DNA of 13,355 nt from a virus. The notes under the pieces are model-generated. The model worked only from the letters and a program-made list of their open reading frames with translations, made no database searches and was not told the DNA's origin. The stretch lies in the UHGV virus genome UHGV-1987395; one strand, 5' to 3'. Position 1 is the first letter of the stretch. Each line of letters opens with the position of its first letter. The position numbers were made by a program, and so were the translations under genes. This document shows, piece after piece, positions 1-13,355 of the stretch.

Positions 1-1
1 A

Positions 2-346
2 GATGAGCACGGTTATCCGATTCTGACAAGTGATGAGATGAACGCCAAATACAAAGGGATTCAGGCAACATTTAAGGATCGGAAGAGCATTAAACTCTCT
101 GAATTGCGAGATGCATTTTACGGGCCGGAGGTGATGGATAAAATTAAAGGCACCGTTGAGGGTAGAATCTGGAAAGAAGATGATTATTGGCATTTAACAG
201 AACAGGCCCTTAAGGTGGCTCAACATGTAGCTAAAAGAGGTAAAACAATTATCATCGATTATATTAGTCATGGCTATGATGCCCCGAAAGAAAGATTGTG
301 GAACAACTGCAAGCTTGTAAAAGGCGAATTAACCATTACAAAATAA
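2..346 (+). CDS. hypothetical protein, 5'-truncated at window edge
   Basis: Frame is open from position 2 to the TAA at 344-346; the first in-window ATG is at 38. No family recognised. Confidence 0.4.
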   Translation, partial: DEHGYPILTSDEMNAKYKGIQATFKDRKSIKLSELRDAFYGPEVMDKIKGTVEGRIWKEDDYWHLTEQALKVAQHVAKRGKTIIIDYISHGYDAPKERLWNNCKLVKGELTITK

Positions 347-386
347 ACATTCTTATTTTTTTACAGTATTCTAAAGGAAATTTAAA

Positions 387-533
387 ATGTATGGCGATTT
401 TGATTATTACCTGGAAAAGGAAAAATATTTTGAAGATGAACTATCACAACATTTTTCATATTGGGAAGAATATTGTGGTTGGTTAGCTGAAGATCCAGCA
501 GATGAAGAAAATGATTCTGACATCCCTTATTAA
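387..533 (+). CDS. small acidic hypothetical protein (48 aa)
   Basis: ATG at 387 preceded by AGGAAA 6 nt upstream; translation MYGDFDYYLEKEKYFEDELSQHFSYWEEYCGWLAEDPADEENDSDIPY is very D/E-rich. Below the 60-aa cut-off of the ORF track; preferred over the overlapping 298..486 ORF, which has no RBS. Confidence 0.35.
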   Translation: MYGDFDYYLEKEKYFEDELSQHFSYWEEYCGWLAEDPADEENDSDIPY

Positions 534-631
534 TTAATATCCCCTGTTATCCCCAAACAAACTAAATAAATAAACTAAGCACTAGAACTAGATTGATTGC
601 CCTGATCTTTTAAACGTTCGGAGAATTAATC

Positions 632-1117
632 ATGTTCAAATCTGATCTTTCTGATTCCCAATTTGAAAAACTGGTAGCACTGCAGAAATATCTCCCCAGT
701 GATGATCAACCAACACGACAGGCTAAACACTTATTAGTCGAGGGCTTTACCCCTGAATTCGTGGCGGAATATACAGGCGTTAAACTTGAGAAAGTCCAAA
801 AACTATATAATGAGTCCTGGAATCCACGGTGTCGAGTTCCCCTCAGTGTCTACAACGAAATAGATAGAGATAGAAATGTCTTCGAAGATCGCCGCCGCAA
901 ATCTCTTTTAATGTGGAATTGTGGGATGAATATTGAAGAGATAGCAAAAGAATTAAAAGTAACCTGCTTTCATGTCTGGGGCTTGTTGAGTGAAATCCTG
1001 CCACGTAAGGAGCTTAATCAACGTTTGCCTAAGCCCGGTAGTCGTGCTTATCGCGAATTTATATTCATCTACCGCCGCCATAGCAATAAAGTCCGGAAAG
1101 CAATGCAGCGCAAATAG
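632..1117 (+). CDS. putative HTH transcriptional activator (Mor/C-like or sigma region-4-like)
   Basis: GGAG 8 nt upstream of ATG; segment RRKSLLMWNCGMNIEEIAKELKVTCFHVWGLLSEI resembles, from memory, the C-terminal HTH of Mu Mor/C-family activators; basic C-terminus. Confidence 0.4.
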   Translation: MFKSDLSDSQFEKLVALQKYLPSDDQPTRQAKHLLVEGFTPEFVAEYTGVKLEKVQKLYNESWNPRCRVPLSVYNEIDRDRNVFEDRRRKSLLMWNCGMNIEEIAKELKVTCFHVWGLLSEILPRKELNQRLPKPGSRAYREFIFIYRRHSNKVRKAMQRK

Positions 1118-1205
1118 CTTATAGCCTTCACATATGCCGCAAGTTATTGATTCTGCCGTCCGGTAAATATGCCGGATGGCTCATATAAATTTTAAGGAAT
1201 TCCAA

Positions 1206-1649
1206 ATGTCTCAAATCGCTAAATTATTATCCCAGGTTATCAAAGCTATCGACGCTGAAGATTCAAAAGTTCGCCAGGATCTTTTAGATGGCAAGTTTAC
1301 CAACACCCTGGCATTTACCCGTGACAAAGAGCACTTCTTAAAACACAGACACCACGCTTTTGCTGAATGCAAGTCCGCTAATGGTGATGTTTTCTATGTC
1401 GATTTGGTGGTTATGGCATGTAGGCTGTGGATGATTCAGGACCTTATGCGCCAACACGGTGATGATCCTCTTATCAGCATGTGGAACAGCGCCCAGGATG
1501 GCTTTGTGATTGCTGCCTTATCCAAATCAATGATTGAGGCAGAAGGGGCAAGCCTTCAGAACATGGCAGATCTCTTTGAAATAAGCGTAGGAATGATGCA
1601 GACCATGCTCCAAGCTGTCAAACCTCTCAAACTGGTTAATCTTGATTAA
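1206..1649 (+). CDS. hypothetical protein
   Basis: ORF 1176..1649 in the track; ATG at 1206 has AAGGA 8 nt upstream, whereas ATG at 1176 has no clear SD. No family recognised. Confidence 0.45.
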   Translation: MSQIAKLLSQVIKAIDAEDSKVRQDLLDGKFTNTLAFTRDKEHFLKHRHHAFAECKSANGDVFYVDLVVMACRLWMIQDLMRQHGDDPLISMWNSAQDGFVIAALSKSMIEAEGASLQNMADLFEISVGMMQTMLQAVKPLKLVNLD

Positions 1650-1703
1650 GATATTGATAAATAAGCACTCCCCATTTTTTTGGGGGTGCATCAATGAGAG
1701 GAT

Positions 1704-2093
1704 ATGCCTATGAATATTGAAGAAATGATAGTTGAATTCGAAGAGGGTGATTTCCTGGAAGAAGGGGAGTTTAAATACTCCCGTTTTAAACAGGCGTTAT
1801 TTAGCAGCGATGATAAACCCCACGTTAGTGATCTTAATGATGATGATTTATGTCGCCTGGTGTGCACCCGCTTATATGAAGATGGAAAGTATACAGGCCA
1901 AAACTTTCCAAATCTCTATTTCAAAGCACAAACATTTGAGGAAGGGCAAAGAGTGAAAAACCTGGTCGATCAAATGCTGTCAGCCGGATATTTGCATAAA
2001 GAATTATTAAATCCTAAAGCTGAAAGCAAGCGCCATTATATTTTTGTGTGGTCTGTGGGGGATAAGTGCCCACTGAAGCGTAAAGGTAAATGA
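1704..2093 (+). CDS. hypothetical acidic protein; possible tail assembly chaperone
   Basis: GAGAGGA SD upstream of ATG; acidic N-terminus; lies two genes upstream of the tape measure gene, the usual position of chaperones. Call is positional only. Confidence 0.4.
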   Translation: MPMNIEEMIVEFEEGDFLEEGEFKYSRFKQALFSSDDKPHVSDLNDDDLCRLVCTRLYEDGKYTGQNFPNLYFKAQTFEEGQRVKNLVDQMLSAGYLHKELLNPKAESKRHYIFVWSVGDKCPLKRKGK

Positions 2094-2094
2094 T

Positions 2095-2280
2095 ATGAAT
2101 ACCTACGAAAAGATTTATCAAAAATTAAAAAGTGATAACAATGCTCCCGTCATCAAGGGCGGGGCTTCTTCCTCTGGTGACCTCTCAATCGAAGAGCTTG
2201 CGGAGAAATATAATATTGATAAAGAGGCCCTGAAAAGGGCTATTTCATTATCAAAATCTTTAAGACAGGGCGAGGTGTAA
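2095..2280 (+). CDS. hypothetical small protein (61 aa)
   Basis: ATG 1 nt after the stop of the upstream ORF (TGAtATG), suggesting translational coupling; ends 3 nt before the tape measure start. Confidence 0.35.
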   Translation: MNTYEKIYQKLKSDNNAPVIKGGASSSGDLSIEELAEKYNIDKEALKRAISLSKSLRQGEV

Positions 2281-2283
2281 GAG

Positions 2284-4404
2284 ATGGCAATGAAGGAAGT
2301 AGCCAAGCTAACAAACGTTATTTACTGGGATTCTGATAAATCCTCCTGGCGAAAAGAAGTTAAACGGCTTGAGGATTATAAAAAATCCTGGAAGAAAGCT
2401 ACCGACGATATAGCTAAAGCGGATTTTAAATCGAATCAGGCTGTGCTCAGAACACAAAGAACACGCGCTAAGGTGGAAGAGCAGATTGCCAGAGCTCAGA
2501 GGAAACAACAGGAAGCACAGAAGAAACAACGTGCTCAGGCTGTCAGCCGTCTGACCGGGGGCAATAATCCGGAGCTCTCCTCTATGCGCAAGTTCTATCA
2601 GCAGCAAGCCAGAGAGGCCGCCAGACAACAAAAACTGTTAGATCGTAGTGTTGGAGATGTTCAGCACAGAAAAGCACGTGTAGGGGCCAACAGTGCACGA
2701 ATCAGCAGTATGTTTGATGGCTCCCTGGTTGCTCAGTTCCAAAGCAGAATCCAGAGAGTTAATGCTGATTATGCTAAAGGGGCTATCAACCTGCAGACCT
2801 ATAATCAGAGGATGGCCCGACTCAGATCTGAAATGAAGATGGCAACAGCTGAAGCCGGAAAATTCCAGAGCAGACTAGATAAACTGGCATCAGGTGCCAG
2901 CAAGGTGCATGACAACCTGGGCAAAATCAACTCCACGCTGGGCAAGATAGCCATTGGCCTTACTGCCGCTGGCTGGGGTGTTCAGCGTGCTGTTAGTGGT
3001 GCTATGGGTAGCCTTGCAGATCGCAACAGTGCCTACTTCGGTTTGATGGCACAGAACAAGGATGATAAAGCCAAGACTGATCAGCAGATGGCTTTTATCA
3101 AGAACACAGCCTACACCTATGGGATGGATGAGCGGGAGATGCAAGGGGGCTACATGCGCTTTGCTGCAGCTACCCCCACCATGAAGGAATCTGATAAGCA
3201 GGCTCTCTTTGAGGCTATGGCTATTAAAGGCCGCTCAGTGGGTGCTACTGGCGAGCAACAGAACAGGGCGCTTGTTGCGGTCCAACAAATGGCTTCAAAG
3301 GGAAAAGTTATGGCGGAAGAGCTGCGGGGCCAACTGTCAGAAGCCTTTGCAGGCTCACAACAGGACTTCCAACAGGCCGCTATTGATGCCGGAATCATCA
3401 AAAATACCCAGGAATTCGATAAAGCCCTTAAAGATGGCAAAATCACCCTGGACAAACTTCTTCCCTCTCTGGTGAAAATCTGGGGTGCAGCAAAAGAAAC
3501 TAAAGCTTTTGCTGAATCCATGAAACAGCCAGAAGTAGCAATGCAGCGCATGAAAAACAGCTTTAACGAGCTGGCGATTCAGTTTATGGGTGTTGTGGAT
3601 CCTGCAGATGGCGTTATTAGCTTATCTGAATCTCTAATCTCCATCTTCGAAGACCTCACCACTGATATGGACGGCAGCGGGAGCGCGGCAAAACAGTTTG
3701 GTGAGGCAGTCGGTGCTGCCATGCGGGAGATCATGTATTGGGTAGGCTTCGCTAAGGGATATATTGAGGTCAAGGCTAAAGAGTTCGGCATGACCGGATC
3801 AGAGGTTGGCGAGCTTATCGGGAAACTGGTAGTCGGCTTAGCTGGTCTGAAAGTTATTACCACACTGCTTTCCCCTCTGACCGGATTTGTTTCACTTGTC
3901 ACTCAGCTGATAGCCTTGTTAGGTAAAATCCCTGGTATGAGCAAGCTTCTGGCTTCTGCCTCAGGTGGAACGGCAACAGGAGCAGCGGTCATCAGTGCAG
4001 GATCTAACGCTGAAAGAAGCTTCATTGATGGCAAGACGCAGGAAATGAGTAAGGAGAACTCAAAACAGGGTGCTTTGTTTGAGCTGGGAAGATTTGTCAG
4101 CAATGCTGGCGCACTGTTCACACCTGGCGGCGATACTGGTCCTTTGTTCGATCAGGTCAGAGGCTGGTTTAATAAAGGGCCAACATTGACAGTAGACACT
4201 GGCATCAGACCAACACCGACGGGTGGCATGGCTATCCAGAATGGTGGATATCAACCAGTCCAAGTAAATGTAGCCCCACAAGGTGAGATTTCCGGCAAAT
4301 GGGAGATAACCATCGATGAGGGGGGAATTGCCAGGGTAATTCAGAAGGAAGTCAGCGATCAGTTGGATTGGAAAGCCACACAGGAATCTAACCAGCTTTT
4401 CTAA
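2284..4404 (+). CDS. phage tail tape measure protein
   Basis: 706 aa; N-terminal Q/R/K/A-rich predicted coiled coil; central region (NKDDKAKTDQQMAFIKNTAYTYGMDEREMQGGYMRFAAATPTMKESDKQALFEAMAIKGRSVGATGEQQNRALVAVQQMASKG...) resembles the conserved tape-measure core domain; Gly-rich hydrophobic segment near the C-terminus. Confidence 0.7.
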   Translation: MAMKEVAKLTNVIYWDSDKSSWRKEVKRLEDYKKSWKKATDDIAKADFKSNQAVLRTQRTRAKVEEQIARAQRKQQEAQKKQRAQAVSRLTGGNNPELSSMRKFYQQQAREAARQQKLLDRSVGDVQHRKARVGANSARISSMFDGSLVAQFQSRIQRVNADYAKGAINLQTYNQRMARLRSEMKMATAEAGKFQSRLDKLASGASKVHDNLGKINSTLGKIAIGLTAAGWGVQRAVSGAMGSLADRNSAYFGLMAQNKDDKAKTDQQMAFIKNTAYTYGMDEREMQGGYMRFAAATPTMKESDKQALFEAMAIKGRSVGATGEQQNRALVAVQQMASKGKVMAEELRGQLSEAFAGSQQDFQQAAIDAGIIKNTQEFDKALKDGKITLDKLLPSLVKIWGAAKETKAFAESMKQPEVAMQRMKNSFNELAIQFMGVVDPADGVISLSESLISIFEDLTTDMDGSGSAAKQFGEAVGAAMREIMYWVGFAKGYIEVKAKEFGMTGSEVGELIGKLVVGLAGLKVITTLLSPLTGFVSLVTQLIALLGKIPGMSKLLASASGGTATGAAVISAGSNAERSFIDGKTQEMSKENSKQGALFELGRFVSNAGALFTPGGDTGPLFDQVRGWFNKGPTLTVDTGIRPTPTGGMAIQNGGYQPVQVNVAPQGEISGKWEITIDEGGIARVIQKEVSDQLDWKATQESNQLF

Positions 4405-4504
4405 TGTCCACTCTGTGGATTTGAGTTCTACTCAAACCTGCATAGCAGGCACTGATATTGTGATCAAAATCAATAAGTTAGCCTGACCGGGTAAACTCCA
4501 GGCA

Positions 4505-4537
4505 AGAAAAAAGCCCCTAAGTGTTAACAAAGGGGCT
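4505..4537 (-). terminator. candidate intrinsic terminator, minus strand
   Basis: 7-bp stem AGCCCCT (4512-4518) / AGGGGCT (4531-4537) with a 12-nt loop, followed on the minus strand by TTTTTT (plus A-run 4505-4511). Confidence 0.45.
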
Positions 4538-4957
4538 CTTCTCCGGTATCCTTTTGATGCGGGGCGAACCTGCTAACAAAAATCAACCTCTCGCGAGACT
4601 AATGTTAGCAGGTTGCCGGAAGGTAAGTCAACTCCGGTCTATAAACCTTAAAGCGACTATAAAATCGCCCCGCCAATTGTGATGATCCGACCTTTGAGGC
4701 GGGTCCGGTGCCCAGGGGGGTGCAGTGATGCACAAACCAGGCAACGATAAACAGGCTAACAGTGATAGCGGCGCTCAATCAGCGCACTAAATCCTAACCA
4801 GTCCGGGAAAGAGGCTGGCTCTATCGACCGCTCATGCACGGGACAATGCATACCTGATAAAGGATTCTCACAAGGGACCAATCGCGAGAAAAGAAGAGGA
4901 AAGGGGCTGATTTGTGGTGTATCACTACGGCCTCAAAAGACCTTCTATTGTCTTTTT

Positions 4958-5416
4958 TCAACCTCTCCCCACATTTGACCAGTATTTGATTGCACCGATC
5001 AAATCATCATAGTGGCGCATTGCATCATTGAAGCCTTTATAGCTTGCCCATTGTGGGGAAACCTTGTTATTGCTGAATTGCCCACTAATCAGGATAGTCT
5101 CCAGAATGTCGGCGTATCGCTTGCCAATTCGCTTTCTGACGGCCTCAGAGCTTCCACCCTTTACGATTGCATTAATCAGGGCTTTTGTGTGTCTCAGGCT
5201 CTCATAGAGCATTGCAGCGTGGGCAGATTCCATAAAGGAGCGCTTAGGCAGATCACCCCACCCCTCAGAGTGGATAGCTGCCAGTGTGGCGTAATTCAGG
5301 CCGCTATAGTGCTTTCCGTCATCCCAGCCAACCGCTACACCTTCCATCTGTGAGAGCTCTTTATGCAGCTTATCCATCATGCGCTTGTCTATGGTGCAAC
5401 GGACTTTCGGACTCAT
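4958..5416 (-). CDS. putative virion morphogenesis / head-tail joining protein
   Basis: 152 aa; ATGA start-stop overlap with the upstream gene; segment LAAIHSEGWGDLPKRSFMESA resembles, from memory, the motif of HK97 gp10-like head-tail joining proteins. Weak. Confidence 0.35.
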   Translation of the reverse strand: MSPKVRCTIDKRMMDKLHKELSQMEGVAVGWDDGKHYSGLNYATLAAIHSEGWGDLPKRSFMESAHAAMLYESLRHTKALINAIVKGGSSEAVRKRIGKRYADILETILISGQFSNNKVSPQWASYKGFNDAMRHYDDLIGAIKYWSNVGRG

Positions 5417-6216
5417 TTGTTGATCTCCGTGATGTCATCGAGCAACATGTTGGCCTTATCAATCATCGTTTCGTGGAACTCATTCGACACAACAGACTTA
5501 TCACCTGCGGCAATCTTTCCCGCTGCCTCTCCCTGTGCATATTCCCCGCGATGCTTAGCCCTGGTAGATTTCGTAGCAGCGTTGCCAGCGTTGCTACCCT
5601 CTTTAGCACTGTTAACAGCACCCTTTTGCTGTGTTTTATTCACCTTCTTACTGTTAGTGAAAACTCCGGCATTTTCGACCATCTTCACCTTGAAGGTGCG
5701 GAATTCTTCAAAGGTGCAATCAATAGTGATGCAGTCACCAGAGGAAGAGCTACGCTTAACTTCACATTTCGTCATGATGAAGTTCTCAAGGAGTCCGGCA
5801 TCTTCACTCACCAGGCTGACCAGCTGGCGCTTGTCTCTCATTTCCATAAGTGCCTGAACAGCGGCAGCAGGGCGCATAGATTCACGGGGATTATCTGGAT
5901 CAGTGTTCCGGTCGATGTAGTTCTCTTTCCGGATGATATAAGGGGAAGAGGTAATAATACCCGTAAAGCTGACAGATTTATCTTTAATGACGGCATGGTC
6001 TGACATGGTGGTGCCATCCTCGACCGCATAGCTCGATTTCTCAACAGGGAACGAATAGCTGACATCAGAGATAGAGTCAAAGAAGATAGCCACATTATCG
6101 GTATAGTTGAAGCCATCCATTATATTTTTGTTTTGTGAATATCCCCCACACATAACAGTGAATGCAGGAGATCTCGACTCAGCTTGTTTTGCAGCTGTCA
6201 GAGCATCACTAGCCAT
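5413..6216 (-). CDS. hypothetical protein, probable virion protein by context
   Basis: ORF 5413..6225 in the track; ATG at 6216 has GGAGG 10 nt upstream, while the ATG at 6225 sits 1 nt from the SD. In the capsid operon; no family recognised. Confidence 0.45.
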   Translation of the reverse strand: MASDALTAAKQAESRSPAFTVMCGGYSQNKNIMDGFNYTDNVAIFFDSISDVSYSFPVEKSSYAVEDGTTMSDHAVIKDKSVSFTGIITSSPYIIRKENYIDRNTDPDNPRESMRPAAAVQALMEMRDKRQLVSLVSEDAGLLENFIMTKCEVKRSSSSGDCITIDCTFEEFRTFKVKMVENAGVFTNSKKVNKTQQKGAVNSAKEGSNAGNAATKSTRAKHRGEYAQGEAAGKIAAGDKSVVSNEFHETMIDKANMLLDDITEINK

Positions 6217-6321
6217 ATTAAACATGCCTCCAAAATGAATCTTTTCGTTGCCCTGCTTAAAATCTGCAGAAAATACAGGGCAGTTATTCGTTAGAATCGC
6301 TTATAGCTCTTCCCGAGAGCG

Positions 6322-6573
6322 TTATTTTGCAAAACGATTATGGGCATTCAGGGCTTTTTTGCGGTCCTGGGCTTGTTTGCGTGCAATAAAATGTTCGAAA
6401 GTCTCGGCCCAGGTGCATTTATTATATTCACGGTATTTATGCATAGCCTGGCGGCTAACGTCATAGCAGGCGGCAAATGTGGAGATACGCAGGAATTCCG
6501 GCAGATCCTCGTCATCGATATGGATAATATCAAAAGGCACGTCGTCACGGTCGCCGTATAAAACAATTTTCAT
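6322..6573 (-). CDS. hypothetical small protein (83 aa)
   Basis: ATG at 6573 with GAGGTG 6 nt upstream; the 6582 start in the track is GTG. Lies just downstream of the post-capsid terminator hairpin. Confidence 0.4.
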   Translation of the reverse strand: MKIVLYGDRDDVPFDIIHIDDEDLPEFLRISTFAACYDVSRQAMHKYREYNKCTWAETFEHFIARKQAQDRKKALNAHNRFAK

Positions 6574-6605
6574 AAAATACACCTCAAAAACTTAAGACGG
6601 GGATA

Positions 6606-6670
6606 ACAAAAAAGGGAAGAGGGAAAGACCTATCCCCGATCTCTCACCTCTTCCCTTTGCTTTTATTTGG
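6606..6670. terminator. bidirectional intrinsic terminator/attenuator between capsid gene and downstream gene
   Basis: 9-bp stem GGGAAGAGG (6614-6622) / CCTCTTCCC (6647-6655); flanked by an A-run 6608-6613 (a T-run on the minus strand) and a T-rich tract 6656-6668 on the plus strand. Confidence 0.55.
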
Positions 6671-6686
6671 CCTTCGAAGAAGGACC

Positions 6687-7730
6687 TTATTTAGCCTTGG
6701 CTTTTGCCAGAGCAGCGGCGGCGGAGTTTTTAACACTCACTTTAACCACAACTTCGGGCATCATGTTCATGAAAGCATAAGAGGATTCAACGAAGATTTC
6801 TCGTTTGCCTCTGGACTCTTCCATATACATGAAAGCTTCACGTGCAGCGCCGTTTGCAAGCTTCAGGTTGCGAGCGCAAGGGCCGAAAAATTGAGTATAA
6901 ACGCCCACCATATCGCCTAACGCATGCGGCTGGAACTGTGGGACCAGATAAGCAGTATTCTCTGGCAGACTATCCATTTGCACCACACGCAGAGCTAAGC
7001 CCGGAATGCGGAAGGTCGGGAAGCCCGGCAGAATATCCTCAGGGAACATCAGACCTTTGTCGGTAATATTCTGATTGCCGAACAACAGCACTTTACGGAG
7101 CAGTTCATCAGTCTGAATAGCGGCGAACACCTCAGCACGGCAGAACAGGGTGAAACCACGCAGAGCGCGAACGACACCACGCTGTTTAACCTTGCTCAGT
7201 GCAACCAGGTCCTGCAGTTGTTTGAGAATATCTTGAGCTAGATCCATTTCAGAGGTGGACTGTTCCACGCCCAGCAGTTCGCACACATTCAGCTCTTTAC
7301 CCTTGGTGAGGATAATTTTGTTCTCAAAGAGAGCAAGCTGGCGTGCTTCTTCGTGGGTCTGGCGTAAGCCTTCGCCCAGTTGAATAACACGACGAGCGGT
7401 TACAGACTCTAAATTCTCTTCGGAATCTTTGCCAGGAACACGAATACCCTGCCAGTCAGAAGGATAAATAGCACTTGATGCGGCAGTGAACGCCATATCA
7501 CCCGTGCCCGTTTCACGCTCATCTGCGGTAATGGTCGCCATCTGTTCACCGTAGCGCGGATACTGACCGAAAGCGGTTTGTTTCACCTGGCGAACTTTGT
7601 CATATTCAAATTTAAAGGTATTGCACAGAGCAGTAGTGTTGAAGATATCCATTGCTGAAATAATCTGGTTATCCAGCGGGATGTCTTTAATCAAGCCACA
7701 CAGATCGCGGACTTCGAATTCTTTTTTCAT
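6687..7730 (-). CDS. phage major capsid protein (E-family-like)
   Basis: 347 aa from ATG 7730 with AAGGAGG 6 nt upstream (the 7736 start in the track is TTG); size and position directly after a decoration-like gene match the usual decoration + E-family capsid pairing; Ala/Lys-rich C-terminal tail. Confidence 0.6.
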   Translation of the reverse strand: MKKEFEVRDLCGLIKDIPLDNQIISAMDIFNTTALCNTFKFEYDKVRQVKQTAFGQYPRYGEQMATITADERETGTGDMAFTAASSAIYPSDWQGIRVPGKDSEENLESVTARRVIQLGEGLRQTHEEARQLALFENKIILTKGKELNVCELLGVEQSTSEMDLAQDILKQLQDLVALSKVKQRGVVRALRGFTLFCRAEVFAAIQTDELLRKVLLFGNQNITDKGLMFPEDILPGFPTFRIPGLALRVVQMDSLPENTAYLVPQFQPHALGDMVGVYTQFFGPCARNLKLANGAAREAFMYMEESRGKREIFVESSYAFMNMMPEVVVKVSVKNSAAAALAKAKAK

Positions 7731-7741
7731 CTCCAACCTCC

Positions 7742-8077
7742 TTATTGTGCAATTCGCAAATCGCCATTGCTGGCAGCGATAACAGCGGCTAAGCCTTCTT
7801 TATCCACGTAGGCCGGATTGATGTAGCAACCTTTGTTGGCAACAACGATAAAAGCATCACCAACCTCAGCACGTTCTACAACCAGCAGCGGAGTTTTACC
7901 GGTGTGCGTTGCTTTAACGAAGGTCTCAACCTCGCCAGCCTCAGTCACCACAACAACAGTGCCAGCCGGAATCTCAGCCTTAACTTTGTTTTTAACTTCA
8001 ACGTCGCGAATACTAAATTGCTCATCTGCGGCGTATGAAATGATGTGTCCGCGTGTGCGGATAGTCATATCTCTCAT
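7742..8077 (-). CDS. putative head decoration protein (DUF2190-like)
   Basis: 111 aa; AGGTGA 4 nt upstream of ATG; Val/Gly/Ala-rich beta-type sequence; sits directly upstream of the capsid gene, with its stop overlapping the capsid SD. Confidence 0.5.
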   Translation of the reverse strand: MRDMTIRTRGHIISYAADEQFSIRDVEVKNKVKAEIPAGTVVVVTEAGEVETFVKATHTGKTPLLVVERAEVGDAFIVVANKGCYINPAYVDKEGLAAVIAASNGDLRIAQ

Positions 8078-8567
8078 TTGATCACCTGCGATTTAAATTA
8101 ACTCCCCTCAAAGAGTTCCGGTATAACCTCTCAAACCACGACAGGCTCGGGCCGAAAAGTTATGCCGGAAATCTAAAGGGAAATTGATACAAGGAGAGGG
8201 AGATAGCCCCGCACCGTAGCCAAGCGGGGGCTATTCCACATGGGGAAACCGACAACAGTCGGATGATAGTTCACAGTATGGTTACGGTTACTAGAGAGCA
8301 CTATCACGAAAGGCACTCCCCCGAATCAGTTCAGGCTGCGGTCACATCAGCGGGGAAATACCTTTCGGGATAGCTACCCACACAGAAAACCCGCAAAAGA
8401 AAACTGTGTGGATAACTAGCCCAATAGGAGAATTAATCGACCACTCAACGATGATCAGGGTAGTGTTATTTATAAGGCGGCACCGCTACCTGGTCGCCTT
8501 TACTTTGGAGGAAAATACGGCAAATCAAGATCTTCTCAAATGATATTGATTCCATACTATACTGTAT

Positions 8568-8596
8568 ATTATATCAGTATTTACTCACATTGTCAA
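8568..8596 (-). promoter_or_regulatory. consensus sigma70 promoter reading leftward toward the capsid operon
   Basis: On the minus strand: TTGACA (plus 8596-8591), 17-nt spacer, TATAAT (plus 8573-8568). Perfect match at both hexamers with optimal spacing. Confidence 0.6.
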
Positions 8597-8750
8597 CACC
8601 TTGATTATATAAATTCTAATAATTAGCGTAGTAACGGTATTTTCAGACCTCTATCAATCCCATCAATACGTCACCCCCACCCTTTAGATGCATACATCCG
8701 ACCTACTTTGTAGGCTTGGCGTACTGCCAAGGTCGCAGCTATGCGACTCC

Positions 8751-8783
8751 TATCTATCACCACTTTATAAAGCTTGATAGATA
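8751..8783. promoter_or_regulatory. dyad-symmetric operator-like site
   Basis: TATCTATCA (8751-8759) and TGATAGATA (8775-8783) are perfect inverted repeats, concentric with an inner perfect palindrome CTTTATAAAG (8763-8772); overlaps a candidate -35 TTGATA at 8774-8779. Confidence 0.4.
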
Positions 8784-8926
8784 TCTTTTGATCAATATCA
8801 ATGTTTTCCAGAGATTTACCCGGCTATAGTTCGAATCAAGGAAGGGGAGCATTGATAGAGACACCCAAAGGGGTGACTGAAAGTCACCTGGCATAGCCAG
8901 TGAAAGCACCCAACCGAACAAACAAA

Positions 8927-8944
8927 TCAACTTCTCGCAAAAGG
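8927..8944 (+). promoter_or_regulatory. conserved 5'-UTR motif, copy 1
   Basis: TCAACTTCTCGCAAAAGG ends 8 nt before ATG 8953; near-identical to the copy at 9446-9464. Confidence 0.4.
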
Positions 8945-8952
8945 TGATAGTT

Positions 8953-9075
8953 ATGGGTATCAAGAACAGTGCCAGCGCATGGCAAAAGGCCAGGTTTCAT
9001 CACCCACACATGGTCAAGGCAATTGAGGTGGTTGGAGTTTTAGCCCTGATGTTAGCTCTGTGTGTGGAGGTGTGA
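8953..9075 (+). CDS. possible small membrane peptide (40 aa)
   Basis: AAGGTGA SD; translation MGIKNSASAWQKARFHHPHMVKAIEVVGVLALMLALCVEV has a C-terminal hydrophobic helix; preceded by the conserved TCAACTTCTCGCAAA motif. Below the track cut-off. Confidence 0.25.
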   Translation: MGIKNSASAWQKARFHHPHMVKAIEVVGVLALMLALCVEV

Positions 9076-9076
9076 G

Positions 9077-9157
9077 ATGGGTAAAGGAGGCAAAGAATTT
9101 TTAATAGGTCTGGCAGTCTTAGATTTTGTATTAATCATCATTGAGCGGAGTTTATGA
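9077..9157 (+). CDS. possible small membrane peptide (26 aa)
   Basis: GGAGGTG SD 4 nt upstream; translation MGKGGKEFLIGLAVLDFVLIIIERSL; its stop overlaps the next start as ATGA. Confidence 0.2.
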   Translation: MGKGGKEFLIGLAVLDFVLIIIERSL

Positions 9158-9414
9158 CGGGAACTAAAGATATTAAGAGACTGAGGGAAGAGCTGATAGC
9201 TGAAATTAAAGCTAAGGCAAAGCAAATGGAGATAGCCGCACAAATGGATGTAGCGGAACAGATGTACAAGATGGTTGAGGAGGGAACGCCACGACAGGTT
9301 ATAGCAAAAACCTTCGGTGTGGGGATCGCCACCGTGCACAGAAGGCTGAAAGCCTATGCCGACTACCACAATATCGAGAGAAAGGAGGATGGGAGATTTA
9401 AGAAGAATAAATAG
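9154..9414 (+). CDS. small DNA-binding protein with resolvase/invertase-type HTH
   Basis: 86 aa; charged helical N-terminus; C-terminal GTPRQVIAKTFGVGIATVHRRLK resembles, from memory, the Hin/Gin C-terminal HTH (GHPRQQLAIIFGIGVSTLYRY); no recombinase catalytic domain. Confidence 0.5.
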   Translation: MTGTKDIKRLREELIAEIKAKAKQMEIAAQMDVAEQMYKMVEEGTPRQVIAKTFGVGIATVHRRLKAYADYHNIERKEDGRFKKNK

Positions 9415-9445
9415 TGTGAACAGTCCAATAGGTTATTAACTAAAT

Positions 9446-9464
9446 TCAACTTCTCGCAAAGGGG
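9446..9464 (+). promoter_or_regulatory. conserved 5'-UTR motif, copy 2
   Basis: TCAACTTCTCGCAAAGGGG ends 7 nt before ATG 9472; same motif as 8927-8944. Confidence 0.4.
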
Positions 9465-9471
9465 TACCACT

Positions 9472-10059
9472 ATGAACATTAAAACTATCATTGCAGCCAT
9501 CACCATTGCCTTTAGTGCCAACACTGCAGCTATTGATGTTAATTTATTTCAGAAGATGACTTGCGAAGATAAATTAGTTGCCATGGATAAGGGGCTAGAA
9601 GCCACGCATAATGGGGAACAGTTTCATTTCTCCTTGAAGAATCTTATCTTGCCCCTGGATTCTGCCGCACAGGTATATGCAACATTGGGTAAATTTGAGA
9701 AGCCGGAAATTGACCTGCAGGGCGTGAGAGCGAAGATCACCAAAAGAAATGAAAGCATTTGTGATATAGCGGTTACGGCCCTTATGACAGATGATGAAAA
9801 AACGATTATAGCTACATGCAAAGATAGCAACGACAACGAACGATTCTTTAAGATCACCCACAACAGGCCCGTTTCTTTCTACTCTAATGCCACAATGGGC
9901 GCGGGTATGCAGTGGCTGAAGAGAGCTAAAGTAACTGAGGTTAATGCTGATGACGATTTATCCTATGAATACGGTTTTATTTCCAATTATATGGCGTGGC
10001 ACCTGAAAAAATGCGGCATCAATGGTCAGGCATACGACAATGGATTTTGGTTTTTCTAA
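9472..10059 (+). CDS. secreted/periplasmic protein of unknown function
   Basis: N-terminal signal peptide MNIKTIIAAITIAFSANTAA with an AxA-like cleavage site; AGGGG SD; followed by an intrinsic terminator at 10081-10106; ends in aromatic FWFF. Confidence 0.55.
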   Translation: MNIKTIIAAITIAFSANTAAIDVNLFQKMTCEDKLVAMDKGLEATHNGEQFHFSLKNLILPLDSAAQVYATLGKFEKPEIDLQGVRAKITKRNESICDIAVTALMTDDEKTIIATCKDSNDNERFFKITHNRPVSFYSNATMGAGMQWLKRAKVTEVNADDDLSYEYGFISNYMAWHLKKCGINGQAYDNGFWFF

Positions 10060-10080
10060 CCTATTAAGTTAATCCCACCT

Positions 10081-10106
10081 GGGGGCCATCACGGCCCCTT
10101 TTTATT
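10081..10106 (+). terminator. intrinsic terminator after the secreted-protein gene
   Basis: GGGGCC (10082-10087), loop ATCAC, GGCCCC (10093-10098), then TTTTTATTT. Confidence 0.65.
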
Positions 10107-10108
10107 TA

Positions 10109-10164
10109 TCCCCTATTTAACCCCTATTTAATGGGTATTTAATGCCTATTTATTGATTTAATGG
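10109..10164. repeat. five tandem copies of an 11-bp unit (consensus about CCCTATTTAA)
   Basis: TCCCCTATTTAA / CCCCTATTTAA / TGGGTATTTAA / TGCCTATTTAT / TGATTTAATGG in direct succession immediately after the terminator; 11-bp period is about one helical turn. Confidence 0.55.
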
Positions 10165-11566
10165 TTTTGGGCATTGTTGACAGTGTAAGAGAGAGGATGT
10201 AACCCTTTTTTGTAATACTAATAAAATCAATAGCTTAGCTCAATTGGCCTTTTCTCTGTTTTTGTCAAATTTAACATACCCTAAAAAACTGCAAAATCTG
10301 GCTGCAAGATTATCTGCAGCTGGATTTCTTACACCTCATTTTGTGGTATCACCCTGACTAGTTTGTGCATAAAATGAACAGTTTTTAACATTTCCTCTTC
10401 ACCTGGTAACCACACAAAAAGCTAAAAACGAGGCACAGATAATCTTAGAGGCCTGTTTTCTTGTTATCACTCTAGAAACGTCGTAGAGATGATTTTAATG
10501 AAAGATGACCTACCCTATTACACCCCTATTTTTTGTTATCACAATTGCATCCTGTGCGGTGTATGGCTATGTGCTGAAAGCGGTCTTATGTGTGGGTGTC
10601 AGAAATATCCATTAGCGGTATTAATACCCGTCGGAGATTCGTCTGAGGTGCCAGGCAGGCGCTCCCCCACCTCCCTTTTTTCTTCTAACAATTCTCAAAT
10701 ATCACACCACTGCCGACCACGTTACTACTCTGTTAATTCTTAAGCTTTGCTGTATGTTGTGCACATTATTTATTCAGGTGGCTGTACGTAAATTCTGTGC
10801 CCACTGATCATGATTTTTAAATCAGATTTTGTAGTTCGCTTTATTAGTGTAGATAAGATCTATTATGTTAAATGCAATTTTCCCAACCCTTCAAATCAAT
10901 GACTTACATGTAAGTATGCACTAACACCCCACACAGCACATTAGACGTATAGATGGCTATATCCCACATTTTTGATTGTTTTGTAGTCATTCCCCTGATC
11001 ATTTAACCAGTATAGTTTGTTCTCTGTAGACCACAAAATCGGAATTTACATCTGATTAACATAATCTGTTAGCATGATCACTATTACCCACACAACAATA
11101 ACCCCATGCAAGCCTCTTTAGGCAATTTATCGGCGTGTTGGTGTGAACAGTCTTTCATGTTCTTTATGAATTCATGACTGCAAGGAATGTATTCATTGTC
11201 CTGTGTGGGGGAAGGATGGACTGCCCCAGGGGCCATAGTTATGACACCCGGTCAACATAACTGTCGATAAAATCAACGGGTGTTGGTATGCATATTTCCC
11301 ACACATGAGAGAAAATCAAAGCAAAGAGAGAGGAGAGAGGTTTGCTAGTCAAAATAGGTCAATTGACGGCTAATACAGAGTAAAAAATCAGATGCAATCA
11401 CTCCCCCACCTGTTGGGATTTCCTACAACCCCTTTCAGTCATACTCAGGCACCACACCCCGGTAAATATTACCGCACTAACCTGTAAAGAATTTTCACAC
11501 CTGTGTGTTTATACAGTCATACTCTCCTGTTTTGCAGTCATTGCACCCATGATACACAGCCCCTAA

Positions 11567-11676
11567 CCTGTCAAAATATTTTACTACTTAGCCACTATAG
11601 CTATGCATACCTGTAAAATATTTTTACTACTACCTGTCAAAATACTTTACTACTACCTGTAAAAATATTTGACACT
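11567..11676. repeat. iteron-like 22-bp direct repeats (four copies, plus a degenerate copy at 11481-11500)
   Basis: CCTGTCAAAATATTTTACTACT (11567-11588), CCTGTAAAATATTTTTACTACT (11610-11631), CCTGTCAAAATACTTTACTACT (11633-11654), CCTGTAAAAATATTTGACACT (11656-11676); the last three are spaced 23 bp start to start. Confidence 0.6.
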
Positions 11677-11789
11677 AATAGATAAAGTAATAGACCACAC
11701 AAGATCCCCCCTAACCCCCCAGGGGGAATGGGGAGGGATCAGAGAGTGGGGAAGGTTTTCTAAGGGAAAAGCTTAACCCACAAATGAAA

Positions 11790-11818
11790 GCCTAAAGAGC
11801 ATTAGCGACTCTTTAGGC
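11790..11818. repeat. perfect 10-bp inverted repeat (hairpin or operator)
   Basis: GCCTAAAGAG (11790-11799), 9-nt spacer, CTCTTTAGGC (11809-11818); the half-site CTCTTTAGGCAAT recurs at 11114-11126. Confidence 0.5.
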
Positions 11819-12258
11819 AATATGTGTGTGGGTCACTCTGTGACTTTAGCTATACAGCTAAACCGACTACGTCGGCCTGTGTGTGGGGGTGACAATGTAT
11901 TCCATACATGACACGTCACCCAATTGTGTGTGGTCCGGCGAATGCGTCAGCATGAGGCCCACATGTGGACCGCTGCCGAAAGCTTGCCAGCGCCGGAAGG
12001 AGGCAGCAAAGAGTCTCCCGCGCGGGTGCACGCACACACATACAAAGGATACACTCATAAATCGAAAATAAGCCACCTAAATGGCCTTCTGGCTGCATTA
12101 ACTAGTGTGAGTAGTGCAATTGCATTACCTGACCTCTAAATCGCGTTAGAATCGATTTTAGAGCGCTTAAGGCAAAAAGTGCCCTCCCTTGTGGGCTTGC
12201 TTGTGTCTGCTGTGCAGGCTATGGCACCTATAGCACACCTAAATGATAATAATTCTCA

Positions 12259-12277
12259 TTGACAATTGGTTGACAAT
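12259..12277. promoter_or_regulatory. tandem TTGACAAT boxes (candidate operator or overlapping -35 elements)
   Basis: TTGACAAT at 12259-12266 and 12270-12277, 11 bp apart; a third copy at 12449-12456 forms the -35 of the downstream promoter. Confidence 0.4.
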
Positions 12278-12448
12278 GTGATAAGATTATAAATAGGGGG
12301 AGAAACAGATCCGGAGGTCAATGTGGAAATTACTGATGCAATAGCGATCATCAACCTGGCTGTACTGTGGTGCGGTGTTGCCTACATAGCCGGAGTAACT
12401 GCAATCGACAATCTTGAAGAAAAAATGATAGATAAATACAAAAAGATT

Positions 12449-12477
12449 GTTGACAATTTGACGAATGTCTGATAAAA
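12449..12477 (+). promoter_or_regulatory. sigma70-like promoter upstream of the 71-aa gene
   Basis: TTGACA (12449-12454), 17-nt spacer, TAAAAT (12472-12477). Confidence 0.5.
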
Positions 12478-12605
12478 TATAAAGCATAGGGTAATTCTCA
12501 TCATAGTGAATTTCCTTTAGTAGACTGGCGGGGGCTTGTCTTAAGTTCCCGTTTCTTTTTAATCATATATCGCACAGGTTAGTGAGCTAACAGGAGGCTT
12601 ATACT

Positions 12606-12821
12606 ATGGCTAAAACCGGACCGATCAGCCAGTTGGTAAACTGGACTACTGACGAAATCGTCGAGAACGTACTTAAGGGGAACTTCCGCAAAACTTCCGT
12701 TTATGCATTCATTCGTAAACATAAAGGAGAATATCCACACATTGAAGAAGCAATTTTAAAACTAAATTGCATTCGCCTTGAGCGGGAACTGGCTAAATAC
12801 ACCAATAACATTAATAAATAA
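12606..12821 (+). CDS. hypothetical small protein (71 aa), possible DNA-binding regulator
   Basis: AGGAGG 8 nt upstream of ATG; lies about 130 nt downstream of a consensus-like promoter; no family recognised. Confidence 0.45.
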   Translation: MAKTGPISQLVNWTTDEIVENVLKGNFRKTSVYAFIRKHKGEYPHIEEAILKLNCIRLERELAKYTNNINK

Positions 12822-12835
12822 TTATGGGGGAATTA

Positions 12836-13355
12836 TGGCAAGTAATTACGGGGAAAATTTTACTCCCCTTTTTAAACGTTTCATCAAATACATTTTTAAA
12901 AATCCGATTGCAAAAACTACAACCAATAAAGAAAGATTTCACTTAAACTTGTTGGAAATGACAATTTACGGTGAGATGGCAAGTTTTAATGCTGCAGGTT
13001 GTGAAATATTTATCTCTGAACAGAGATTAGCAGACGATTATGATGTTTCAAGACCGACAGTTATTAACTCGATTAAATCTCTAGAAAATGCCGGGCTTAT
13101 TTCAATAGTTAAAAGTAAAGGCAAATCTAATCATTACAAACTGCTAATTACCCCTGATCAGCTTGGCAAGATGTGTGATGAGCAGGGTATTAAAACCTCC
13201 GACAGTGTGGGATCTAGTAAAGAGGCCCCCGATAATCAACAGGAAGCCCCAAAACAAGCCACACAGCAAGCTAAAAAGGCCGAGGTGGTGCAATTGCCTA
13301 CCCAACCTAAGAACGAGCGCAGAGAGCGCTTTAGAGACGCTGGCAAACGTGAGAA
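12836..13355 (+). CDS. winged-HTH DNA-binding protein, putative replication initiator or regulator (3'-truncated)
   Basis: Open from ATG 12836 to the window end; segment ISEQRLADDYDVSRPTVINSIKSLENAGLISIVKSKGKSNHYKLL is a classic winged-HTH; followed by a low-complexity Q/K/A/E-rich linker. Confidence 0.5.

What the first reader, a model, noticed from the sequence alone, without database searches (positions are those of the whole stretch)
9472..10059. Secreted protein with its own terminator inside a virion/regulatory region
A signal-peptide protein of unknown function with a dedicated RBS motif and terminator looks like a moron or lysogenic-conversion gene (superinfection exclusion or a surface or periplasmic factor) inserted among phage modules.
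Basis: inference. Interest (0 to 1): 0.35.

Follow-up and report, generated by a model that had tools for sequence, protein, structure and literature searches.

The report
Exported cargo protein in swappable slot
The ORF is a real, selected gene for an exported (periplasmic) protein with no relatives outside one small family of 13-kb phage-derived E. coli plasmids, where it is one of three interchangeable envelope-protein genes sharing one fixed expression slot; this pattern is typical of phage-exclusion or conversion cargo, but its function is untested.

Summary
ORF 9472-10059 (+) encodes 195 aa with a Sec-type signal peptide (MNIKTIIAAITIAFSANTAA|IDV), a Shine-Dalgarno 8 nt upstream and a stem-loop plus T-run at 10081-10109.

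The window is a complete ~13.3-kb circular, non-mobilizable E. coli/Shigella plasmid. It carries a replication initiator, iterons and only some virion genes: capsid, tape measure, Dit-like and neck.

In 12 related elements the DNA is invariant up to the ATG and again from about 7 nt before the terminator. Between these points sits one of three cargo ORFs:
- type A: this secreted protein, in two mosaic alleles;
- type B: a polytopic membrane protein;
- type C: a membrane-anchored or signal-peptide periplasmic protein, possibly sharing a short motif with A.

So the RBS and terminator belong to the backbone slot, not to the gene, and no promoter of its own was found. It probably forms an operon with a conserved 40-aa peptide and an 86-aa HTH protein.

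Type A is under purifying selection (dN/dS about 0.26). It has no family, defence-model, phage-genome, PDB or fold match.

Best reading: accessory envelope cargo, most likely a periplasmic superinfection-exclusion-type factor (inferred, about 0.4). "Moron" is only partly right. Interest is modest; the carrier element is the more unusual object.

The parts
8927..8944 (+). First copy of the leader motif TCAACTTCTCGCAAAAGG, ending 8 nt before the ATG of the 40-aa ORF
   Evidence: 2 matches in the window against 0.04 expected; 0 of 200 shuffles gave 2 or more; invariant in 9 elements.
8953..9075 (+). Conserved, unannotated 40-aa ORF (MGIKNSASAWQKARFHHPHMVKAIEVVGVLALMLALCVEV) with a C-terminal hydrophobic helix; probable first gene of the operon
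   Evidence: intact and 95-100% identical in all 9 elements. KD19 segment at 18-40; no family match.
9154..9414 (+). 86-aa coiled-coil plus HTH_7 DNA-binding protein, immediately upstream of the slot; candidate regulator
   Evidence: PF02796, E = 3.6e-06, above the curated cutoff; phrog_664; 94-100% identical in all elements.
9432..9471 (+). Conserved slot leader: second copy of the motif (9446-9463) with the Shine-Dalgarno AAAGGGG. Backbone sequence shared by cargo types A, B and C.
   Evidence: invariant up to and including the ATG in 9 elements, with divergence starting at the next base; blastn breakpoint at 9474.
9472..9531 (+). Signal peptide of the cargo protein (residues 1-20, predicted cut TAA|IDV)
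   Evidence: heuristic with OmpA and MalE controls; residues 1-22 almost invariant; pN = 0 and pS = 0.19 in this segment.
9532..10059 (+). Mature type-A cargo protein (175 aa, 4 invariant Cys, conserved C-terminal QAYDNGFWFF) plus stop codon. The window carries the rarer allele.
   Evidence: AF2 pLDDT 71.4, mixed alpha/beta; no fold match.
10081..10109 (+). Intrinsic terminator of the slot (GGGGGCC-ATCAC-GGCCCCT followed by a T-run); backbone sequence
   Evidence: -14.5 kcal/mol; invariant in 9 of 9 elements after A, B or C cargo.
10100..10151 (+). Four 11-nt direct repeats (CCCTATTTAA-like) starting at the terminator T-run; possible protein-binding sites. Whether they belong to the unit is uncertain.
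   Evidence: family D1; repeats conserved, with variable insertions between terminator and repeats in some elements.

Best explanation
ORF 9472-10059 is one of three interchangeable cargo genes in a fixed expression slot of a ~13.3-kb plasmid-borne, phage-derived element.

Shown:
- The slot consists of a backbone leader, RBS and ATG, then the cargo ORF, then a backbone terminator.
- All three cargo types are predicted envelope proteins.
- Type A carries a Sec-type signal peptide and four invariant cysteines.
- It is under purifying selection and exists as two ancient alleles shuffled by recombination.

Inferred:
- The gene is co-transcribed with the upstream 40-aa peptide and the 86-aa HTH protein, divergently from the capsid operon, and is therefore made while the element is carried as a plasmid.
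- The protein is exported, cleaved after Ala20 and disulfide-bonded in the periplasm.

Most likely mechanism (inference, about 0.4): in the periplasm it interferes with incoming phage or satellite genome delivery, or with an envelope receptor or entry factor. That would make it a superinfection-exclusion-type function, with types A, B and C as alternative specificities.
For: Slot architecture:
- The 5' flank is invariant through the ATG and the terminator is invariant in 9 elements with three different cargos.
- Blastn homology breaks at 9474 and resumes at 10074-10106.
- The window and L001 are about 100% identical in most backbone proteins but carry A versus B.
- The slot is filled in all 12 elements: 6 with A, 5 with B, 1 with C. 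A decayed 13th copy carries a truncated C.

Envelope targeting of all cargos:
- Type A has a signal peptide. Type B has TM segments. Type C has an N-terminal TM anchor, and its variant P0018 has a cleavable signal peptide instead.
- A and C share the motif CKDxxxNxRxxxxxH (BLASTP E = 2e-5; hhalign probability 72%).

Real gene: dN/dS 0.25-0.28, with segments of pS 0.13-0.36 alternating with segments of pS 0.77-0.89.

Not a virion or known protein: no Pfam, PHROG, PADLOC or NCBIfam family, no tblastn hit in 50,697 phage records, no PDB sequence hit, and no fold hit.

Precedents from the literature:
- Sie proteins are envelope proteins encoded next to the regulators of the carrier state, and include a soluble periplasmic one, Glo of phage K139 (PMC3952083).
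Against: - There is no experimental or homology link to any exclusion protein, and PADLOC is negative.
- The fold is unrecognised, and the model is only moderately confident (pLDDT 71).
- No promoter was found, so expression in the carrier state is assumed from gene order only.
- Cargo type does not co-vary with the element's own tape measure or Dit-like protein, so no target can be suggested.
- An element that probably depends on a helper phage would have to spare that helper.
- The signal peptide was judged by a heuristic, not by SignalP.
Confidence: 0.42

Rival explanations
1. Host-fitness or virulence conversion factor: a periplasmic protein that changes envelope properties (stress tolerance, serum or bile resistance, adhesion) for the benefit of the carrier strain and has nothing to do with phages.
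For: It is exported accessory cargo in an element found in human, pig, cattle and chicken isolates on five continents. It has no defence-model hit. Lambda bor and lom are precedents for exported conversion genes (own knowledge).
Against: All three cargo families occur only in this 13-kb element family, not in chromosomes or virulence plasmids. Replacement among three forms and ancient mosaic alleles fits antagonistic co-evolution better. The protein has no similarity to Bor, Lom or Ail.
Confidence: 0.15
2. Lysis or helper-manipulation factor: the slot proteins act at the envelope during the element's own transfer cycle (antiholin-, spanin- or holin-like timing, or inhibition of a helper's cell-wall enzymes).
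For: The element has no recognisable lysis genes. Type B is a small polytopic membrane protein with a basic C-terminal tail. Type C is a TM anchor plus a periplasmic domain. These architectures are also seen in holins, antiholins and i-spanins (own knowledge).
Against: The slot lies with the HTH gene on the strand opposite the capsid operon and behind its own terminator, not in a late or lysis cassette. The type-B homologue in L009 sits among small early-like genes, with no endolysin nearby. An essential cycle function would not be expected to be met by a soluble periplasmic protein in one element and a polytopic membrane protein in its near-identical sibling.
Confidence: 0.12
3. Secreted competition or immunity protein (a bacteriocin-like effector or its periplasmic immunity partner), or part of a plasmid-maintenance module with the upstream 40-aa membrane peptide.
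For: A conserved 40-aa hydrophobic peptide shares the same leader motif and probably the same transcript. The cargo is small and exported, with disulfides.
Against: No similarity to any bacteriocin, immunity or toxin family. The 40-aa peptide is constant while the cargo is swapped, so they are not a matched pair.
Confidence: 0.05
4. Virion or assembly component of the element's particles.
For: It lies in an element whose other recognisable genes are mostly structural.
Against: A cleavable signal peptide sends it out of the cytoplasm, where tailed-phage particles assemble. It has no PHROG, BFVD or PDB match. It is replaced by membrane proteins in sibling elements.
Confidence: 0.03
5. Chance ORF or decaying gene with no function.
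For: Orphan family; no known domain.
Against: dN/dS 0.25-0.28. Two alleles about 66% identical both keep the full 195-aa frame, four Cys and an identical C-terminus. There are 237 member sequences.
Confidence: 0.02

Closest known systems
Superinfection-exclusion proteins of temperate phages and plasmid prophages: soluble periplasmic Glo of Vibrio phage K139, processed periplasmic Sim of phage P1, lipoprotein Ltp of TP-J34, inner-membrane SieA of P22
   Same: They are small envelope-located proteins encoded next to the regulatory or immunity genes and made in the carrier state. Glo is cited as a soluble periplasmic case (PMC3952083). [quoted passage not shown] Sim is from my own knowledge.
   Different: There is no sequence similarity to any protein encoded in 50,697 phage records and no fold match. 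The exclusion phenotype and carrier-state expression were not tested. The carrier is a 13-kb plasmid with a partial virion gene set, not a complete phage.
[quoted passage not shown]
   Same: Conserved flanks hold unrelated, rapidly exchanged accessory genes in otherwise near-identical elements.
   Different: The cargo here is a single ORF swapped exactly between a shared ATG and a shared terminator, so the backbone supplies all expression signals. All cargos are envelope proteins, and none matches a known defence model.
Morons of lambdoid phages (e.g. lambda bor and lom, HK97 gp15); definition recalled from Juhala/Hendrix 2000, own knowledge
   Same: It is a non-essential gene followed by an intrinsic terminator, and its product goes to the envelope.
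   Different: There is no presence/absence polymorphism (the slot is never empty), no promoter of its own was found, the terminator belongs to the backbone, and the composition is not deviant.

Membership tests
Type-I (Sec/SPase I) signal-peptide proteins | Positively charged n-region, 7-15 residue hydrophobic h-region, small residues at -3 and -1, no lipobox | tested here: met
   K4; h-region KD 2.83 (OmpA control 2.89); TAA|IDV at 20/21; no Cys before residue 31; no TM-length segment. This is a heuristic only; SignalP was not available.
Type-I (Sec/SPase I) signal-peptide proteins | Actual export and cleavage | not testable with these tools
   Needs PhoA/Bla fusions or N-terminal sequencing. 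Four invariant Cys are indirect support.
Moron (lambdoid-phage sense) | Extra gene present in some genomes and absent between the same neighbours in others | tested here: not met
   All 12 elements have the slot filled with A, B or C. This is replacement, not insertion.
Moron (lambdoid-phage sense) | Own promoter | tested here: not met
   No sigma-70-like site on the + strand between 8600 and 9472. The 57-nt gap after the HTH gene is conserved leader. A weak or activated promoter cannot be excluded.
Moron (lambdoid-phage sense) | Own terminator | tested here: inconclusive
   A terminator is present, but it is invariant backbone sequence shared by all cargo types.
Moron (lambdoid-phage sense) | Deviant base composition | tested here: not met
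   GC is 0.39-0.45 across the ORF against 0.44 for the window.
Variable cargo hotspot of phages/satellites | Conserved flanks with unrelated cargo in closely related elements | tested here: met
Variable cargo hotspot of phages/satellites | Cargo recognisable as known defence systems | tested here: not met
   PADLOC gives 0 families for A, B and C.
Superinfection-exclusion proteins | Homology to a described Sie family (Sim, Cor, Llp, Imm, Sp, SieA, Ltp, Glo) | tested here: not met
   No tblastn hit in the phage collection, no PHROG, and no BFVD or PDB fold hit.
Superinfection-exclusion proteins | Envelope location | tested here: met
   Predicted only.
Superinfection-exclusion proteins | Expressed in the carrier state and blocks infection at or after adsorption | not testable with these tools
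   Needs RNA-seq of carrier strains and plating, adsorption and DNA-entry assays.
Conserved virion components | Match to a structural protein family or fold | tested here: not met
   Best fold E-values are 0.33 (PDB) and 0.043 (BFVD), with query-normalised TM-score (TMq) at most 0.25.
Ail/Lom-type outer-membrane beta-barrels | Pfam Ail_Lom/OmpX match; all-beta amphipathic strands | tested here: not met
   No Pfam hit. The model is mixed alpha/beta with long helices. Four Cys. Only the C-terminal ...FWFF resembles an OMP terminus.

The most novel reading that the evidence does not exclude
The A/B/C slot encodes a previously undescribed set of envelope-acting entry-exclusion or specificity factors. 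Type A would be a new-fold soluble periplasmic one. They would belong to a so far uncharacterised class of plasmid-borne phage satellite that supplies its own capsid, tape-measure and tail-tip proteins but depends on a helper for the rest of particle production. The slot would decide which phages or rival satellites can enter a carrier cell.
Probability: 0.25. Interest if true: 0.6.

Novelty: new variant of a known kind. Interest (0 to 1): 0.4.

Why it matters
On its own the gene is one more orphan exported protein.

It gains interest from three points:
- It sits in an ORF-precise, backbone-driven exchange slot whose three alternatives are all envelope proteins. This gives a clean natural experiment (near-isogenic elements with A, B or C) for finding what envelope step they act on.
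- Soluble periplasmic exclusion factors are rare; the literature read here cites Glo as the exception.
- The carrier is a small autonomous replicon with capsid, tape-measure and Dit-like genes but no terminase, portal or lysis genes. It is absent from the phage and IMG/VR collections. A 2025 review still lists "phage-plasmid satellites" only as a hypothesis (PMC12282955).

If the slot proteins control phage entry, they would be a new handle on phage-satellite-host conflict in E. coli.

Tried and rejected
- Family searches of type A in Pfam, PHROGs, PADLOC and NCBIfam found nothing. The single NCBIfam line scored 15.6 bits against a cutoff of 642 and is noise.
- DNA and tblastn searches against 50,697 phage records found no match for the gene or the whole window.
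- The word-indexed protein search found only 12 clusters, all on contigs whose longest member is 13.4-14.4 kb.
- The exhaustive HMMER profile search of 1.84 billion representatives found one full-length cluster and two fragments. It also gave a borderline hit, P0015 (E = 1.5e-4), a repetitive K/E-rich lipoprotein-like protein that I regard as compositional.
- The PDB sequence search found nothing below E = 0.6.
- The first AF2 model was unusable (pLDDT 45). A second, using the mature sequence with type A and type C homologues, reached pLDDT 71 but had no significant Foldseek match in PDB or BFVD.
- IMG/VR scans with the cargo profile and the capsid protein, and a GTDB species-representative scan with the capsid protein, found nothing.
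- The B versus C 'GPW' transmembrane similarity is not significant (E = 0.074) and was dropped.
- Co-variation of cargo type with the tape-measure or Dit-like proteins, as a hint to a target, was not seen.
- A literature search by accession found only a strain table. Searches for plasmid satellites found no description of this element.
- The Lom/Ail-type outer-membrane barrel idea, prompted by the C-terminal FWFF, was rejected.

Full report
**Observation**

The N-terminus MNIKTIIAAITIAFSANTAA|IDV has the three parts of a Sec/SPase-I signal peptide:
- a Lys in the n-region;
- a 10-residue hydrophobic core, whose best 9-residue Kyte-Doolittle mean is 2.83 (2.89 for the OmpA control);
- small residues at -3 and -1.

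It has no lipobox and no 19-residue membrane-spanning segment. This is a heuristic; SignalP could not be run.

A Shine-Dalgarno AAAGGGG ends 8 nt before the ATG, in a leader with no stable structure. A 7-bp G+C-rich hairpin with a T-run follows the stop codon at 10081-10109 (-14.5 kcal/mol). On scan counts and folding energy alone this hairpin is not beyond chance (6 sites found versus 4.7 expected; z = -1.54). Its reality rests on conservation, described below.

**What the window is**

The whole 13,355-base window matches complete circular 13.2-13.7-kb E. coli plasmids over 81-95% of its length, at 91-97% identity. It is found in 7 of 5,426 complete E. coli genomes, never on a chromosome, and is typed non-mobilizable.

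It matches nothing in 50,697 phage records, in IMG/VR or in GTDB species representatives.

The element encodes:
- an O-like/DnaD-like replication initiator that runs across the window ends, and 23-nt iterons;
- only part of a virion gene set: a 111-aa protein and a major capsid protein (phrog_29), a Dit-like protein, a tail-completion/Neck1-like protein and a 706-aa tape measure.

So the finding does not sit "among phage modules" of a phage. It sits in a small plasmid-like, phage-derived element.

**The slot**

In eight complete relatives, the position after the 86-aa HTH gene holds one of three genes:
- type A: the 195-aa protein of this finding;
- type B: a 173-aa protein;
- type C: a 236-aa protein.

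Whole-element blastn shows homology stopping at window base 9474, the G of the ATG, and resuming at 10074-10106. Alignment of the junctions shows that the leader TTAACTAAATTCAACTTCTCGCAAAGGGGTACCAyTATG is invariant in all nine elements and that divergence begins at the next base. The terminator GGGGGCCATCACGGCCCC plus T-run is likewise invariant after all three cargo types.

The RBS and terminator therefore belong to the backbone, and only the ORF is exchanged.

Two metagenome contigs found with the leader as a pattern, and the three-copy record NZ_CP043822, carry B, A and A respectively. Across 12 elements the slot is never empty: 6 carry A, 5 carry B and 1 carries C. A decayed 13th copy inside an IncFII plasmid has a truncated C.

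The window and pVTB448v-4 (L001) are about 100% identical in most backbone proteins yet carry A and B, so the exchange is recent.

**The three cargos**

- Type A is the secreted protein.
- Type B is a polytopic membrane protein whose most conserved part is a G/R/S-rich C-terminal tail.
- Type C has an N-terminal membrane anchor and a Cys-containing C-terminal domain. Its variant P0018 replaces the anchor with a cleavable signal peptide, so what matters is delivering that domain to the periplasm.

A and C share a short motif (…CKDxxxNxRxxxxxH…; BLASTP 33% over 33 residues, E = 2e-5; hhalign probability 72% over 31 columns). Remote homology is possible but not established.

All three families are confined to this element family. 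Their contigs are 13.4-14.4 kb, from E. coli or Shigella. The one exception is a 47%-identical type-B homologue on an 18.9-kb contig of a different, unidentified phage-like genome.

**Type A as a protein**

An exhaustive profile search of 1.84 billion representatives finds no outside relative. The one borderline hit is a repetitive lipoprotein-like sequence that I regard as compositional.

There is no Pfam, PHROG, PADLOC or NCBIfam family and no PDB sequence match.

With type A alone, AlphaFold gave pLDDT 45. With the mature sequence aligned to type A and type C proteins it gave pLDDT 71.4 and pTM 0.67. The model is a mixed alpha/beta protein with a three-stranded central sheet, flanking helices and a disordered aromatic C-terminus. 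Foldseek finds nothing significant in PDB (best E = 0.33) or BFVD (best E = 0.043; query-normalised TM-score, TMq, at most 0.25).

**Selection and alleles**

The window carries the rarer of two alleles:
- P0001 cluster: 99% identical, 41 member sequences;
- common allele: 65-68% identical, 196 member sequences.

All four Cys and the C-terminal QAYDNGFWFF are invariant.

Nei-Gojobori dN/dS between the alleles is 0.25-0.28. The gene is a mosaic:
- Alignment columns 1-23, 73-99, 124-157 and 187-196 have pS 0.13-0.36 and pN at most 0.05.
- Alignment columns 24-72, 100-123 and 158-186 have pS 0.77-0.89 and pN 0.19-0.59.

This is the signature of two old alleles patched together by recombination under purifying selection. 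It is not the signature of a decaying ORF.

**Expression context (inferred)**

No sigma-70-like promoter was found on the + strand between 8600 and the ATG.

Upstream on the same strand lie the 86-aa coiled-coil/HTH_7 protein and a conserved, unannotated 40-aa ORF with a C-terminal hydrophobic helix. That ORF's ATG is preceded by the same 18-nt motif as the cargo gene (2 copies in the window against 0.04 expected; conserved in all elements).

The three genes point away from a perfect-consensus promoter on the other strand (8596..8568) that faces the capsid genes.

The simplest reading is a peptide-HTH-cargo operon ending at the slot terminator, expressed separately from the structural genes. 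This was not tested.

**Mechanism**

What is shown: this is an accessory, exported, selected protein in an exchange slot that only ever holds envelope proteins.

What I infer: it acts in the periplasm of the carrier cell on a step of the envelope that is under antagonistic pressure. Most probably that step is the entry of phage or satellite DNA, or the availability of an entry factor, i.e. a superinfection-exclusion-type function.

Precedents:
- Sie proteins are envelope proteins encoded beside carrier-state regulators. Usually they are membrane- or lipid-anchored, with periplasmic Glo of K139 as the soluble exception (PMC3952083).

I put about 0.4 on this. The rest is spread over host-fitness conversion, lysis or helper manipulation, competition/immunity, and smaller options. 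Points against: no homology, no recognised fold, no promoter evidence, no co-variation with the element's own tape measure or Dit-like protein, and the need to spare a helper.

**Comparison with known kinds**

It works most like a Sie or conversion gene in a variable hotspot.

It is not a member of any described Sie family: homology was tested and not met.

It fails three of four moron criteria:
- no presence/absence polymorphism;
- no promoter of its own;
- no deviant composition.

On the fourth criterion, the terminator is present but belongs to the backbone.

The hotspot criterion (conserved flanks, unrelated cargo) is met, but no cargo type matches any known defence-system model.

**Verdict**

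The gene is a new orphan family in a new variant of a known arrangement.

Interest is modest (0.4). The more unusual object is the carrier element, recorded under things noticed in passing.

Noticed in passing
window 1-13355 (whole): The window is a complete ~13.3-kb circular, non-mobilizable E. coli/Shigella plasmid. It has an O-like Rep and iterons but only a partial virion gene set: a 111-aa protein plus capsid protein, a Dit-like protein, a neck/tail-completion protein and a 706-aa tape measure. No terminase, portal, protease, tube or lysis genes are recognisable. It is absent from the phage, IMG/VR and GTDB-representative collections. It is a candidate plasmid-borne phage satellite; I found no description of it.
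   Followed up: partly
window 8953-9075 (+): An unannotated 40-aa ORF (MGIKNSASAWQKARFHHPHMVKAIEVVGVLALMLALCVEV) with a C-terminal hydrophobic helix. It is 95-100% conserved in all 9 elements and preceded by the same 18-nt leader motif as the cargo gene. It could be a small membrane peptide or toxin.
   Followed up: partly
window 10100-12300: About 2.2 kb without conserved ORFs. The first ~1.3 kb (about 10100-11420) is 89-97% identical across most elements; identity falls further downstream. The 84-aa ORF at 10489 carries a stop codon in 8 of 10 relatives. The stretch contains 11-nt CCCTATTTAA repeats at 10100-10151 and 23-nt iterons at 11477-11677. There is no Rfam hit. It may hold the origin, a packaging site or an ncRNA.
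   Followed up: partly
window 8080-8600 (-): A perfect-consensus promoter (TTGACA-17-TATAAT with TG, 8596..8568 on the - strand) lies about 490 nt upstream of the first structural gene (orf111, 8077). The conserved ORF-free leader between them contains a 25-nt inverted repeat at 8361-8428. It may be a regulatory leader.
   Followed up: no
window 8557-8624, 12242-12287, 12448-12489: Three look-alike promoter regions built around TGTTGACAAT (one on the - strand, two on the + strand) are related as long inverted repeats (I1 and I2). This suggests a common regulator for the structural and replication operons.
   Followed up: no
L011 (NZ_CP043822.1, 39,610 b): This record is three tandem copies of the element. 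Copy 1 has many broken genes while copies 2 and 3 are intact. It is either a real multimer or a long-read assembly artefact. If real, a 3-mer of about 40 kb could matter for headful packaging.
   Followed up: partly
L010 (JAQRGU010000003.1, 94.6-kb contig): A decayed copy of the element (split tape measure, truncated type-C cargo, interrupted orf157) sits inside an IncFII plasmid between IS elements.
   Followed up: partly
L009 (Logan SRR33442656 contig, 18.9 kb): A distant relative of the tail genes (Dit-like 38%, tape measure 47%, neck 33% identity), in a different gene order. It is followed by many small early-like genes, including a Lambda_Kil-like peptide, an HNH endonuclease and a 47%-identical type-B cargo homologue. 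It is not E. coli and not in the phage collection. It may represent the phage lineage the element derives from.
   Followed up: partly
window 12835-13355 + 1-346, 2095-2280, 12606-12821: Besides the cargo slot, three other genes are replaced by divergent versions between otherwise near-identical elements: Rep (42-100% identity), the 61-aa protein before the tape measure (53-100%) and a 71-aa protein (38-100%).
   Followed up: no
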